Below, one piece after another: positions 62,897-63,461 of a stretch of DNA of 64,000 nucleotides. The DNA comes from a virus: the IMG/VR virus record IMGVR_UViG_3300050500_000608; one strand, written 5' to 3'. The notes under the pieces were generated by a model. That model was given only the letters and a program-made list of their open reading frames with translations, had not been told where the DNA came from and did not search any database. The translations under genes and the position numbers were made by a program. Each line of letters opens with the position of its first letter. The stretch's first letter is position 1.

Positions 62897-63461
62897 AAAG
62901 CCTTAGCTTAAGACTAACAGTGAAATCGGACCCAGACGATCAGATTTAGAGTTGCGTCAAAAGCTTAAGGTTTATAGTGAATGGATGAAGCCAGGTAGTT
63001 CGGACTATCCTGATAACGCAGGTTCGAATCCTGCCCCCCTCTCATAGGAAGCTGAACTATTTGGCCCGGCAAAACTTTCGGTTTCTACCTGAAGTTGTTT
63101 TTAGAGCAGTCGGTAATTTTCTCATAAGTCTTAGGAAGCCGGGCCAAAATTTCTTGCATATATGCTTCGGCGCAACAGGGACATGGTCCTGTGTTAGCCC
63201 TTTCTTATATGCATAGGGCCGGGAGAGCTCTCTACGCGTAAGCAATCTCTTAGCAGGTGAGTACAATGCGTGCTCAGCCTGCTCTCTGAGGGGGTAGTAT
63301 AGTTGGTAGTACATTGGGCGTCAAGCCTCAGCATAAGGCTACCTGAACGCGTCATCCAGTTTACCAAGCAGTGAACTCATAATTCACAGTAGACTTGAAA
63401 TCTACTCGCTTAAACACAAGGGAACTTCAGACAGGATACGATCTGGAGTTCCCATTTTTTT
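62897..63461 (+). ncRNA. Large structured RNA with a circularly permuted tRNA core and twin anticodon-loop mimics
   Basis: T-arm at 63018-63034 and acceptor 3' strand at 63035-63041 lie upstream of the acceptor 5' strand (63288-63294) and D-arm (63297-63312). Many nested helices. Confidence 0.8.
63420..63461 (+). terminator. Intrinsic terminator closing the ncRNA
   Basis: GGGAACTTCAGA/TCTGGAGTTCCC 12-bp stem plus T7. Confidence 0.8.

What the first reader, a model, noticed from the sequence alone, without database searches (positions are those of the whole stretch)
62977..63364. Circularly permuted tRNA core inside a large phage ncRNA
The 3' half comes first: anticodon-stem strand CCTGA (63009-13), variable TAAC, T-arm GCAGG-TTCGAAT-CCTGC (63018-34), acceptor strand CCCCCTC (63035-41), discriminator T. 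The 5' half lies 245 nt downstream: GAGGGGG (63288-94, a perfect 7-bp partner), TA, D-arm GTAT-AGTTGGTA-GTAC, then A and TTGGG (63314-18). The anticodon loop is replaced by a long nested helix: CAGGTAG/CTACCTG, TGGATGA/TCATCCA, GTGAA/TTTAC. The insert is itself folded (63060-70 with 63138-48; 63155-62 with 63206-13; GCAGG-TGAGTAC/GTGCTCA-CCTGC). This topology is known for YrlA Y RNAs and two-piece tmRNAs, but this RNA has a full D-arm, no G3-U70 pair, no tag ORF and a large insert. U73 plus a side hairpin with GCA centred in a 7-nt loop (63324-63340) are CysRS-like cues, though the loop is non-canonical. tRNA scanners would likely miss it. It may be an undescribed RNA class.
Basis: partly seen in the sequence, partly recalled or inferred. 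Interest (0 to 1): 0.92.

Follow-up and report, generated by a model that had tools for sequence, protein, structure and literature searches.

The report
Phage RNA with inside-out tRNA core
A crAss-like phage and six relatives encode a roughly 575-base folded RNA built around a complete tRNA shape whose two halves lie in swapped order and whose acceptor tip carries a conserved 100-245-base insert. It matches no catalogued RNA family and is most likely a tRNA look-alike of the Y-RNA-like kind, whose job is still unknown.

Summary
Window 62977-63364 holds a circularly permuted tRNA body, in the order T-arm, 3' acceptor strand, 245-nt insert, 5' acceptor strand, D-arm. A long helix closes it where the anticodon loop would be.

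It is the core of a terminator-ended non-coding RNA of about 575 nt (62886-63461). Six further phage contigs carry the same RNA, always just upstream of an AAA ATPase gene and near phage tRNA genes. Compensatory changes support every helix. The tertiary 15-48 pair covaries. A covariance model built without the window finds it at E 3e-28.

ARAGORN and Rfam 15 find nothing. The defining features of YrlA Y RNAs (Ro60 gene nearby, GNCGAA motif) and of tmRNA (G3-U70, tag frame) were tested and are not met.

This scan has met a related class before on other DNA: permuted tRNA-mimic RNAs beside DUF7873 genes. The window has a DUF7873 gene 1.5 kb upstream. I confirmed that pairing in Planctomycetota, but it is not universal, and RNA-level similarity is limited to the tRNA core.

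Best reading: a single-module, insert-bearing variant of Y-RNA-like tRNA mimics. Its exact 7-bp acceptor stem and U73 suggest that RNase P and RNase Z recognise it. Function and protein partner are inferred only.

The parts
60630..61424 (+). DUF7873 gene, candidate protein partner (context)
   Evidence: Pfam PF25283, E 9.7e-34. Orthologues lie upstream of the RNA in L081 and L090 at 81-83% identity. A terminator-like hairpin follows at 61461-61486.
61506..61934 (+). cREC_REC gene (predicted cyclic-phosphate processing domain; context)
   Evidence: Pfam PF20274, E 1.7e-20. The start is taken from the called gene in L010. Conserved upstream of the RNA in L081, L082, L088 and L090.
62736..62882 (+). 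48-aa very basic peptide ORF ending just before the RNA
   Evidence: tblastn finds it directly upstream of the RNA in 5 of 7 members at 69-71% identity. No Pfam or Atlas match.
62886..62976 (+). Conserved 5' domain of the RNA (long imperfect hairpin, GCGUCAAAAG motif)
   Evidence: Sequence is conserved in 6 of 7 members. Covariation is weak: 2 of 19 pairs. Absent in L088.
62977..62998 (+). Closing helix, 5' strand (GTGAA, TGGATGA, CAGGTAG)
   Evidence: Pairs with 63339-63364. RNAalifold predicts it. The inner 9 pairs are 92% paired and 3 are compensatory. The middle part covaries, for example GGAUGA/UCAUCC, GGACA/UGUCC and GAGAAU/AUUCUC.
63009..63017 (+). Anticodon-stem 3' strand (63009-13) and 4-nt variable region ending in C48
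   Evidence: The 5-bp stem is 100% paired and 2 pairs are compensatory. Position 48 covaries with position 15: G15-C48 in five members, A15-U48 in L091 and L088.
63018..63034 (+). T-arm GCAGG-TTCGAAT-CCTGC
   Evidence: Canonical T-loop. 100% paired, 3 of 5 pairs compensatory, for example ACAAG/CTTGT in L094.
63035..63042 (+). Acceptor 3' strand CCCCCTC plus discriminator U73
   Evidence: Perfect 7-bp partner of 63288-94. 49 of 49 cells are paired and 4 of 7 pairs are compensatory. U73 and C74 occur in 7 of 7 members. L094 encodes CCA after U73.
63058..63150 (+). Conserved insert hairpin: invariant stem TTGGCCCGG/CCGGGCCAA with an inner hairpin capped by GUUUCUAC (63081-88)
   Evidence: Present in 7 of 7 members. 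The outer stem is invariant. 4 of 6 inner-hairpin pairs are compensatory.
63151..63287 (+). Second, lineage-specific part of the insert (three hairpins in this phage)
   Evidence: Absent in L081, L088, L091 and L094. L082 and L090 have a different sequence there. Insert lengths are 245, 101, 186, 193, 110, 119 and 107 nt.
63288..63318 (+). Acceptor 5' strand, U8 A9, D-arm (63297-312), A26, anticodon-stem 5' strand
   Evidence: U8, A14, R15, G18, G19 and A21 are kept. The D-stem is predicted by RNAalifold with one compensatory pair. Joined in silico to the 3' half, ARAGORN calls a tRNA in 7 of 7 members.
63324..63340 (+). Side hairpin with conserved 7-nt loop YAGCAUA
   Evidence: Conserved in 6 of 7 members, with GCC in L094; absent in L088. 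Overlaps the closing helix by 2 nt.
63339..63364 (+). Closing helix, 3' strand (CTACCTG, invariant GAACGC bulge, TCATCCA, TTTAC)
   Evidence: See the 5' strand.
63366..63411 (+). Two anticodon-arm-like hairpins (loops CUCAUAA and CUUGAAA)
   Evidence: Five relatives have one such hairpin, with loop CUCGUAA, CUUGUAA or CUUGAAA. The stems covary: GUGAA/UUCAC against GUAGA/UCUAC.
63420..63461 (+). Terminator hairpin with invariant loop CAGGAUACG, followed by a U-tract
   Evidence: 11 of 12 stem pairs are compensatory while the loop is invariant in 6 members. The AAA ATPase start codon follows 23 nt later at 63484.

Best explanation
SHOWN. The stretch is the core of a conserved, terminator-ended structured non-coding RNA of about 575 nt (62886-63461, + strand) in a small clade of distant crAss-like phages. 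Its centre is a complete tRNA body: a 7-bp acceptor stem, D-arm, 5-bp anticodon stem, 4-nt variable region and T-arm. The residues needed for the L-shape are all present (U8, A14, G18G19, the T54-A58 loop, and a covarying 15-48 pair). The body is encoded in circularly permuted order. The RNA's own ends leave through a long helix and a three-way junction where the anticodon loop would be. The acceptor tip is bridged by a 101-245-nt insert that always contains one conserved hairpin.

INFERRED. It works as a tRNA mimic of the YrlA / Y-RNA-like kind, that is, a scaffold or decoy that proteins recognising the tRNA elbow and the acceptor/T minihelix will bind. Three features are strictly kept: the 7+5-bp minihelix, U73-C74 and a mostly unpaired A/U-rich leader before G1. 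For that reason host RNase P (cutting before 63288) and RNase Z or the CCA-adding enzyme (acting after 63042) probably process it. Mycobacterium smegmatis YrlA is handled this way. The products would be a two-piece tRNA-like RNA held together by the acceptor and closing helices, plus a released conserved hairpin RNA.

Its neighbours are a DUF7873 gene, a cREC cyclic-phosphate domain gene, Tad2-like genes in relatives, and phage tRNA arrays. This setting suggests a role in tRNA-centred counter-defence or RNA repair. DUF7873 is the leading but unproven candidate partner protein.
For: Structure and conservation:
- Seven distinct members share the architecture.
- RNAalifold on six full-length sequences predicts all helices, and 33 of 83 pairs are compensatory.
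- Model R1, built without the window, hits it at 108.5 bits, E 3e-28.
- Pair counts: 93.6% paired, 18 compensatory pairs, 0 of 500 shuffles as high, and slid controls at 39-48% paired.
- Levitt pair G15-C48 changes to A15-U48 in two members.
- The in-silico un-permuted core is called a tRNA in 7 of 7 members.

Processing cues:
- Exactly 7 bp of acceptor stem in 7 of 7 members.
- U73 and C74 in 7 of 7; CCA encoded in L094.
- Precedent: M. smegmatis YrlA has a 7-bp acceptor stem, is cut by RNase P and receives CCA in vivo (PMC4201824).

The sequence is real:
- An identical copy occurs in an independent JGI sample.

Context:
- DUF7873 and cREC lie upstream; Tad2-like genes occur in relatives.
- tRNA genes lie downstream of the AAA gene in all relatives.
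- In a sample of Planctomycetota, 17 of 18 strong DUF7873 loci have permuted tRNA-like modules directly downstream on the same strand. R1 hits five of those loci.
Against: - No transcript, end-mapping or binding data could be obtained.
- Processing is by analogy only. A weak predicted pairing of U73-C74-A75 with a UGA in the insert could mask the site.
- The insert hairpin is the most conserved part. If it were simply discarded it should not be conserved.
- DUF7873 link, point 1: the gene is 1.46 kb away with five ORFs and a terminator-like hairpin (61461-86) in between.
- DUF7873 link, point 2: no DUF7873 gene lies within 3-3.5 kb upstream of the RNA in L082 and L088.
- DUF7873 link, point 3: the nearest sequenced DUF7873 genes (Lak megaphages, 42% identity) have no such RNA within 3 kb.
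- DUF7873 link, point 4: the reciprocal model from planctomycete modules matches only the generic permuted tRNA core of one phage member (34.5 bits), and tandem tRNAs reach 17-22 bits.
- The family is narrow: 7 sequences, and none in IMG/VR, 50,697 phage records or GTDB representatives.
Confidence: 0.55

Rival explanations
1. The tRNA-like core is mainly a processing cassette. RNase Z after U73 and RNase P before G1 excise the conserved insert hairpin (63058-63150) with defined ends, and that hairpin is the functional small RNA. Herpesvirus tRNA-miRNA chimeras and tRNA-linked sRNAs work this way.
For: The insert hairpin is the most conserved element: an invariant 9-bp stem and an invariant GUUUCUAC apex in 7 of 7 members. 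It is flanked on both sides by canonical tRNA processing sites. A possible distant relative, L074:931-1169, has the same hairpin directly after a normal-order mini tRNA. Its stem reads TTAGCC/GGCTAA against TTGGCC/GGCCAA in the phage family.
Against: The D-arm, the Levitt pair, the closing helix, the side hairpin and the terminator loop are all conserved too. A mere processing signal would not need them. No target or partner for the hairpin is known. Nothing in Rfam resembles it.
Confidence: 0.15
2. The whole element is a cis-acting leader (attenuator) of the AAA ATPase gene. The terminator 23 nt before the start codon is read through or not depending on what binds the tRNA-like fold.
For: In all 7 members the terminator ends 20-25 nt before the AAA start codon, which leaves no room for a separate promoter. 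The terminator loop is invariant while its stem covaries. AGUUUAC can pair with GUAGACU as an alternative to the closing helix end plus the anticodon-arm-like hairpin.
Against: A 575-nt leader containing a full tRNA body has no precedent. The minimal member L088 has a plain UUCG terminator and lacks the alternative-pairing segment. In the possible relative L074 the shared motifs lie 1.2 kb from the AAA gene with tRNA genes in between. Phage tRNA clusters are commonly co-transcribed with ORFs and separated by processing.
Confidence: 0.12
3. It is an orthologue of YrlA-type Y RNA that binds a Ro60/Rsr protein.
For: It has the same module order (variable region, T-arm, acceptor stem, D-arm) with termini on a helix that replaces the anticodon loop. 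The Levitt pair covaries, as reported for YrlA (PMC4201824). YrlA RNAs occur in phages.
Against: No Ro60 (TROVE) domain was found in any ORF of 300 aa or more that was scanned against Pfam, nor in any neighbour of the RNA scanned against Pfam. Four large head and packaging ORFs were scanned against PHROGs only. The GNCGAAN0-1G motif is absent in 7 of 7 members. Rfam has no YrlA match even at E<=10. The RNA is 4-5 times longer than YrlA. About 10 kb of the contig was not seen.
Confidence: 0.07
4. It is a two-piece (circularly permuted) tmRNA or a permuted true tRNA gene that matures into a translating molecule.
For: The gene order is 3' half, intervening segment, 5' half, with a long P2-like helix. 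U73 is present, and CCA is encoded in one member.
Against: ARAGORN, which detects permuted tmRNA, finds nothing. Only the T-arm matches a tmRNA model, at 8.4 bits. The third acceptor pair is G3-C70, not G3-U70. There are no pseudoknots, and the only frame after the helix has four codons. The D-arm is full, unlike tmRNA. There is no anticodon loop at all, so it cannot decode.
Confidence: 0.03
5. It is a DNA-level feature (an attP-like tRNA fragment or a protein-binding palindrome), or a chance resemblance.
For: The invariant inverted repeat TTGGCCCGG...CCGGGCCAA shows no covariation, as a DNA site would. Phage attP sites often carry tRNA 3' parts.
Against: Both tRNA halves are present and covary to keep pairing. 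A tertiary pair also covaries. No integrase gene lies next to it. The strand-specific T-loop and D-loop consensus, and the terminator, point to an RNA.
Confidence: 0.03

Closest known systems
YrlA-type bacterial and phage Y RNAs bound by Ro60/Rsr
   Same: Permuted tRNA-like domain in the order variable region, T-arm, acceptor stem, D-arm. Canonical T- and D-loop residues. Covarying 15-48 pair. RNA termini on a helix in place of the anticodon loop. M. smegmatis YrlA, with a 7-bp acceptor stem, is cut by RNase P and gets CCA.
   Different: No Ro60 gene was seen, there is no GNCGAAN0-1G motif and no Rfam match. The RNA is about 575 nt against 80-130 nt. The acceptor cap is a conserved 101-245-nt structured insert rather than a small loop. 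An intact 5-bp anticodon stem opens into a three-way junction with a conserved side hairpin. It also has a 5' domain, anticodon-arm-like hairpins and a terminator with an invariant loop.
DUF7873-associated double tRNA-mimic RNA
   Same: Permuted tRNA-like module with a perfect 7-bp acceptor stem, ending at a terminator, often within phage tRNA regions. A DUF7873 gene lies upstream on the same strand. The phage-built model R1 hits planctomycete modules next to DUF7873 at 20-40 bits.
   Different: This RNA has one module rather than two. The capping loop is 101-245 nt against 4-56 nt. DUF7873 is 1.3-1.5 kb away rather than adjacent, and was not seen near two of the seven members. RNA similarity does not extend beyond the tRNA core.
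Two-piece, circularly permuted tmRNA (alpha-proteobacteria, some cyanobacteria and beta-proteobacteria); comparison from general knowledge
   Same: The 3' tRNA-like half is encoded before the 5' half, with an intervening segment that is removed. A long helix extends from the tRNA-like domain.
   Different: It has a full D-arm and G3-C70. It has no tag reading frame and no pseudoknots. The intervening segment is conserved. ARAGORN is negative.
Circularly permuted tRNA genes of Cyanidioschyzon merolae and some other algae and archaea; comparison from general knowledge
   Same: The 3' half lies upstream of the 5' half, and the acceptor strands are joined by an intervening sequence.
   Different: Those genes keep an anticodon loop and mature through a circular intermediate with eukaryal or archaeal splicing enzymes. 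Here the anticodon loop is replaced by the RNA's exit helix, so no decoding tRNA can result.
ROOL and GOLLD large ornate RNAs of phages and prophages; comparison from general knowledge
   Same: Several-hundred-nucleotide, multi-domain, phage-borne RNAs of unknown function that lie near tRNA genes.
   Different: There is no match to either Rfam model. To my knowledge neither is described as built on a permuted tRNA body.

Membership tests
YrlA / bacterial Y RNA | Encoded within about 4 kb of a Ro60/Rsr (TROVE) gene on the same strand | tested here: not met
   All neighbours within 4 kb scanned: DUF7873, cREC, small ORFs without a family, AAA ATPase. No TROVE domain in the ORFs of 300 aa or more scanned against Pfam; four large head and packaging ORFs were scanned against PHROGs only. 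About 10 kb of the contig upstream of the window was not seen.
YrlA / bacterial Y RNA | GNCGAAN0-1G motif near the 5' end (presumed Ro60 contact) | tested here: not met
   The regular expression finds no match in any of the 7 members.
YrlA / bacterial Y RNA | tRNA-like domain in the order T-arm, acceptor-like stem, D-arm, with tRNA tertiary residues | tested here: met
YrlA / bacterial Y RNA | Match to the Rfam covariance model | tested here: not met
   No match at gathering score or at E<=10 in the window region or in five relatives.
tmRNA (two-piece) | G3-U70 alanine identity pair | tested here: not met
   G3-C70 in all 7 members.
tmRNA (two-piece) | Tag reading frame with resume codon, and pseudoknots | tested here: not met
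   Only a four-codon frame follows the helix. ARAGORN finds no tmRNA. The tmRNA models match the T-arm only, at 8.4 bits.
Functional (permuted) tRNA gene | 7-nt anticodon loop closing the anticodon stem | tested here: not met
   The stem opens into a three-way junction leading to the RNA termini in 6 members, or directly to the termini in L088.
Functional (permuted) tRNA gene | Cloverleaf body that scores as a tRNA | tested here: met
   After in-silico re-joining with a placeholder loop, ARAGORN calls a tRNA in 7 of 7 members.
DUF7873-associated tRNA-mimic RNA (scan-defined, unpublished) | DUF7873 gene immediately upstream on the same strand | tested here: inconclusive
   Present 1.3-1.5 kb upstream in the window, L081 and L090, and on the P0021 contig. 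Absent within 3-3.5 kb in L082 and L088. The flank is not visible in L091 and L094.
DUF7873-associated tRNA-mimic RNA (scan-defined, unpublished) | Two tandem permuted modules with short capped acceptor stems | tested here: not met
DUF7873-associated tRNA-mimic RNA (scan-defined, unpublished) | RNA-level homology beyond the generic tRNA core | tested here: inconclusive
   R1 hits planctomycete modules at 20-40 bits. The reciprocal model R2 hits only L091, over the core (34.5 bits), and tandem tRNAs reach 17-22 bits.
Processed tRNA-like RNA (RNase P / RNase Z / CCA enzyme substrate) | Ends at G1 and N73 and non-templated CCA in vivo | not testable with these tools
Only sequence cues are available: 7+5-bp minihelix, U73, C74.

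The most novel reading that the evidence does not exclude
Host RNase P and RNase Z cut the RNA into a CCA-tailed two-piece tRNA look-alike and a conserved hairpin RNA. Together with phage proteins (DUF7873 and/or the cREC cyclic-phosphate enzyme), these form an RNA-based counter-defence. The tRNA body and the anticodon-arm-like hairpins would soak up or report tRNA-cleaving host immunity. Candidate host systems are anticodon nucleases and the type VI-B Cas13b systems of Bacteroidota, which turn tRNA fragments into 2',3'-cyclic-phosphate alarm signals (PMC13692257). This would be a new class of phage RNA decoy.
Probability: 0.12. Interest if true: 0.85.

Novelty: new variant of a known kind. 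Interest (0 to 1): 0.62.

Why it matters
tRNA mimicry by non-coding RNAs is known from tmRNA and from Ro60-bound Y RNAs, but what the mimicry is for remains largely unknown. This RNA keeps a complete tRNA body, including a covarying tertiary pair. It has no Ro60, carries a large conserved insert exactly at the acceptor end, and sits among phage tRNA genes, a cyclic-phosphate-processing gene and anti-defence genes. That extends the architecture to crAss-like phages.

It also gives a member in which processing by RNase P and RNase Z would produce easily detectable products, so the question 'scaffold, decoy or processed two-piece RNA?' becomes directly testable. In addition, it adds a data point for and against the proposed DUF7873-RNA pairing that this scan has found elsewhere. 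If the RNA proves to be an RNA-based counter-defence against tRNA-targeting immunity, that would be a new mechanism. If not, it is still an uncatalogued, well-supported structured RNA family.

Tried and rejected
Searches that found no further members:
- blastn of the element against 50,697 phage records: no match.
- Neighbour-protein searches of IMG/VR with cREC, DUF7873 and the AAA gene. They returned only distant cREC or AAA loci without the element.
- Pattern scans of IMG/VR and GTDB genomes for the conserved hairpin. They gave only chance matches inside coding regions (L089, L092, L093) and the L074 contig.
- AAA orthologues at about 60% identity or less lack the element.

Readings considered and rejected:
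- Cas12a repeat mimic. UUUCUAC in the hairpin apex and GUAGA in the later hairpin resemble the two halves of a Cas12a repeat as I recall it. They lie 200-300 nt apart, and covariation supports a different local hairpin.
- Pairing of the invariant terminator loop CAGGAUACG with UAUCCUG upstream. The partner is not conserved in L081, L082 or L094.
- Coding potential. Only short ORFs of 85 aa or fewer overlap. Insert lengths differ by amounts that are not multiples of three.
- Group I intron or permuted intron-exon. No Rfam signal.
- attP. Both halves covary.

Technical dead ends:
- MAFFT misaligned the hairpin in two alignment attempts.
- A first covariance model was too long to calibrate.
- The Burroughs and Aravind 2016 paper could not be read in the library.
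- DUF7873 has no PDB sequence match and no informative fold neighbour in the Atlas.
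Full report
**1. What is in the sequence**

- CCTGA (63009-13), then TAAC
- T-arm GCAGG-TTCGAAT-CCTGC (63018-34)
- acceptor 3' strand CCCCCTC (63035-41), then T (63042)
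- 245 nt later, acceptor 5' strand GAGGGGG (63288-94), then TA
- D-arm GTAT-AGTTGGTA-GTAC (63297-312), then A, then TTGGG (63314-18)
- the nested closing helix GTGAA/TTTAC, TGGATGA/TCATCCA, CAGGTAG/CTACCTG

Other results on the same stretch:
- ARAGORN finds no tRNA or tmRNA in the whole window.
- Rfam 15 has no match at gathering score. At E<=10 over 62700-63600 it gives only a 17-nt T-arm fragment of a tmRNA model, at 8.4 bits.
- The minimum-energy fold of 62960-63380 reproduces the closing helix, T-arm, 7-bp acceptor stem, D-arm and insert hairpins (z -3.2). The full intergenic stretch 62883-63462 folds with z -5.2.

**2. Where it lies**

- The window is part of an 81-kb metagenomic phage contig. 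An identical copy of the region sits on an independent JGI contig.
- The phage is a distant crAss-like virus. It has portal, terminase and capsid PHROGs and the CrAss_Ring_1 tail protein. Its terminase is 35% identical to that of a Leptolyngbya phage and about 27% to crAss-like phages of Bacteroidota.
- All genes around the element are on the + strand. In order they are DUF7873 (60630-61424), cREC_REC (ends 61934), three small ORFs, and a 48-aa basic peptide (62736-62882). The 600-nt ORF-free stretch comes next, then a 560-aa AAA ATPase gene starting at 63484.
- Downstream of the ATPase gene, beyond the window, lie tRNA-Ser(UGA), Asp, Met and Trp genes.

**3. Relatives and covariation**

Orthologues of the AAA ATPase at 76-84% identity led to six further contigs with an ORF-free gap just upstream of that gene. 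All six gaps contain the same architecture:
- L081:3060-3482
- L082:2972-3476 (also L083-L086, with part in L087)
- L088:3260-3485
- L090:2965-3480
- L091:290-728
- L094:1640-2080

The acceptor stems differ but always pair perfectly:

| Member | 5' strand | 3' strand |
|---|---|---|
| window | GAGGGGG | CCCCCTC |
| L081 | AGGGAGG | CCTCCCT |
| L082 | GGGGAGG | CCTCCCC |
| L090 | GGGGGGA | TCCCCCC |
| L091 | TGGGGGG | TCCCCCA |
| L094 | AGGGGGA | TCCCCCT |
| L088 | GAGGAGA | TCTCCTC |

- RNAalifold on six full-length sequences predicts every helix on its own: closing helix, anticodon stem, T-arm, acceptor stem, conserved insert hairpin with its inner hairpin, D-arm and terminator. 33 of 83 pairs are compensatory.
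- A covariance model built from L081, L088, L091 and L094 only finds the three members left out. The scores are: window 62990-63350 at 108.5 bits (E 3e-28), L090 at 125.6 bits and L082 at 120.6 bits.
- On the model-fitted alignment of the seven, 93.6% of cells are standard pairs (shuffles 85.4 +/- 1.0). 18 pairs carry changes on both sides (shuffles 8.5 +/- 2.0). No shuffle in 500 reaches either value, and slid controls fall to 39-48% paired. That alignment leans towards the structure, but one search is independent of it.
- Per helix: acceptor stem 100% paired with 4 of 7 pairs compensatory; T-arm 3 of 5; anticodon stem 2 of 5; inner insert hairpin 4 of 6.

**4. It is a tRNA body in three dimensions, not only a cloverleaf**

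- U8, A14, G18, G19, A21, the T-loop TTCGAAT and the G53-C61 pair are kept.
- The Levitt pair covaries: G15-C48 in five members and A15-U48 in L091 and L088 (strings).
- When the 5' half, a placeholder anticodon loop and the 3' half are joined in silico, ARAGORN calls a tRNA in 7 of 7 cases. The amino-acid label it gives is that of my placeholder.
- The discriminator is U in all seven and the next base is C in all seven. L094 encodes CCA.

**5. The rest of the RNA**

- The insert is 245, 101, 186, 193, 110, 119 or 107 nt long. It always begins with one hairpin. The stem TTGGCCCGG/CCGGGCCAA is invariant. The inner hairpin covaries under an invariant GUUUCUAC apex (window 63058-63150). What follows it is lineage-specific.
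- Six members share further elements:
  - a 90-nt 5' domain, conserved in sequence but with little covariation
  - a side hairpin with loop YAGCAUA (GCC in L094)
  - an invariant GAACGC bulge
  - one or two hairpins with anticodon-loop-like 7-nt loops (CUCAUAA and CUUGAAA here; CUCGUAA, CUUGUAA or CUUGAAA in relatives), whose stems covary
  - a terminator in which 11 of 12 stem pairs are compensatory while the loop CAGGAUACG is invariant
- L088 is a minimal form with only the tRNA body, the insert hairpin and a plain terminator.
- The unit is therefore about 575 nt in this phage (62886-63461).

**6. Comparison with known families**

YrlA Y RNAs have the same module order and tRNA-like tertiary features. 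M. smegmatis YrlA, the one with a 7-bp acceptor stem, is cut by RNase P and receives CCA in vivo (PMC4201824). Their defining features fail here:
- No Ro60 (TROVE) gene was found among the neighbours or the large ORFs scanned against Pfam. Four large head and packaging ORFs were scanned against PHROGs only.
- The GNCGAAN0-1G motif is absent in 7 of 7 members.
- There is no Rfam match in the window or in five relatives.

tmRNA fails on G3-U70, the tag frame, pseudoknots and ARAGORN. A true permuted tRNA gene fails because there is no anticodon loop. It works like a YrlA-type tRNA mimic but is not a member of that family.

**7. A lead from earlier notes of this scan, tested here**

The scan has repeatedly met, on other DNA, an RNA of about 370 nt with two permuted tRNA-like modules directly after a DUF7873 gene. 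The window has a DUF7873 gene 1.46 kb upstream.

Support for a link:
- I sampled 301 Planctomycetota genomes, and 19 carry DUF7873.
- 17 of the 18 strong loci have one or two permuted modules with perfect 7-bp acceptor stems directly downstream on the same strand. Their caps are 4-56 nt.
- The phage-built model R1 hits five of those loci at 20-40 bits.
- DUF7873 orthologues also lie 1.3-1.5 kb upstream of the RNA in L081 and L090, and a DUF7873 gene lies about 2 kb upstream of the AAA gene on the P0021 contig, for which no DNA was available.

Against an obligatory pair:
- No DUF7873 gene lies within 3-3.5 kb in L082 and L088.
- A terminator-like hairpin follows DUF7873 in the window, at 61461-86.
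- The nearest sequenced DUF7873 genes (Lak megaphages, 42% identity) have no module within 3 kb.
- A reciprocal model from eleven planctomycete modules matches only the permuted tRNA core of L091 (34.5 bits), and tandem tRNAs give 17-22 bits.

DUF7873 has no PDB match and no informative fold neighbour. No paper in the library mentions it. I therefore treat DUF7873 as the leading but unproven partner. I treat the window's RNA as a single-module, insert-bearing variant of this wider, unpublished class.

**8. How it most likely works**

- Shown: a conserved structured RNA with a permuted, L-shape-competent tRNA body.
- Inferred: it is recognised by factors that bind the tRNA elbow and the 12-bp acceptor/T minihelix.
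- The invariant 7-bp length, U73-C74 and the mostly A/U-rich leader before G1 (U at -1 in 4 of 7 members) are what RNase P and RNase Z read. Cleavage before 63288 and after 63042, followed by CCA addition, is therefore the default expectation. The result would be a two-piece tRNA-like RNA plus a released conserved hairpin.
- The neighbourhood points to tRNA-centred counter-defence or RNA repair. It includes cREC, predicted to open 2',3'-cyclic phosphates (PMC9503650), Tad2-like genes in relatives, and phage tRNA arrays.
- Isolated anticodon stem-loops can be substrates of a tRNA-cleaving Cas13b (PMC13692257). That makes a decoy role for the downstream hairpins conceivable, but it is speculation.

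Rivals:
- a processing cassette whose real product is the insert hairpin
- a cis-acting attenuator of the AAA gene, because the terminator ends 23 nt before its start codon in all members
- a true Ro60 Y RNA
- a tmRNA or a true tRNA
- a DNA site

**9. A possible distant relative**

L074:931-1169 scores 24.6 bits with R1. It has a normal-order mini tRNA (acceptor stem, D-arm and T-arm, no anticodon arm). After it come a hairpin with the same GUUUCUAC loop, whose stem reads TTAGCC/GGCTAA against TTGGCC/GGCCAA in the phage family, and a UCAAG...AGCAU segment. A DUF932 gene lies upstream. This hints that the hairpin module travels with an acceptor/T minihelix in either topology, but it is a single case.

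**10. Limits**

- There are only seven members, all from metagenomes. None is in IMG/VR, GenBank phages or GTDB representatives.
- About 10 kb of the contig was not seen.
- The 5' end of the RNA is not defined.

**11. Verdict**

The RNA is a new variant of a known kind: tRNA-mimic, Y-RNA-like RNAs. It is absent from Rfam and from the papers searched, and it is related in architecture and gene context to a class this scan has already met elsewhere. Interest 0.62.

Noticed in passing
window 44409-44470 (+): A miniature tRNA-like element that ARAGORN does not call. It has acceptor stem CAGAAGT/ACTTCTG and T-arm GAGGG-TTCGAGT-CCCTC, but a single hairpin in place of the D and anticodon arms. A similar mini tRNA occurs at about L074:920-975.
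   Followed up: partly
window 62736-62882 (+): A 48-aa, very basic peptide ORF ends just before the RNA. It is conserved in that position in 5 of 7 family members at 69-71% identity. It has no Pfam or Atlas relatives and could be an RNA-binding partner.
   Followed up: partly
window 63366-63411 (+): Two hairpins with 5-bp stems and anticodon-loop-like loops (CUCAUAA, CUUGAAA). Five relatives have one, with loop CUCGUAA, CUUGUAA or CUUGAAA, and the stems covary. They belong to the same RNA as the permuted tRNA core.
   Followed up: partly
window 63420-63461 (+): A terminator hairpin in which 11 of 12 stem pairs are compensatory while the loop CAGGAUACG is invariant in six phages. The loop is probably a contact site. 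No conserved pairing partner was found.
   Followed up: partly
window 61461-61486 (+): A terminator-like hairpin with a T-run lies in the 81-nt gap between the DUF7873 gene and the cREC gene. The Lak-A1 DUF7873 gene is also followed directly by a hairpin and a T-run (L118:3800-3850).
   Followed up: no
L090:1695-1964 and L094:370-666: Tad2-like (Thoeris anti-defence 2) genes lie in the gene string upstream of the RNA in relatives: next to cREC in L090, and in L094 where no cREC was seen. The P0021 contig also has one. The RNA therefore lies in an accessory, counter-defence neighbourhood.
   Followed up: partly
L010:13298-14126 (contig beyond the window's 3' end): tRNA-Ser(UGA), Asp, Met and Trp genes follow the AAA ATPase gene. 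All relatives also have tRNA arrays there, several including tRNA-Cys(GCA) with U73.
   Followed up: partly
L074:886-1215 (IMGVR_UViG_3300037193_002967): A possible distant relative. It has a normal-order mini tRNA, then a hairpin with the same GUUUCUAC loop and a UCAAG...AGCAU segment. These sit in a 1.5-kb ORF-free tRNA region after a DUF932 gene.
   Followed up: partly
L024:2140-2250 and L073:630-745: tRNA-shaped genes upstream of distant AAA ATPase homologues that ARAGORN misses. One has a very long extra arm. The other has an insertion and an encoded CCA.
   Followed up: no
L118 (Prevotella phage Lak-A1, MK250016.1 33482-40261): The closest DUF7873 homologues in sequenced phages are in Lak megaphages (42% identity). 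No permuted tRNA-like module or tRNA gene lies within 3 kb of that gene.
   Followed up: yes
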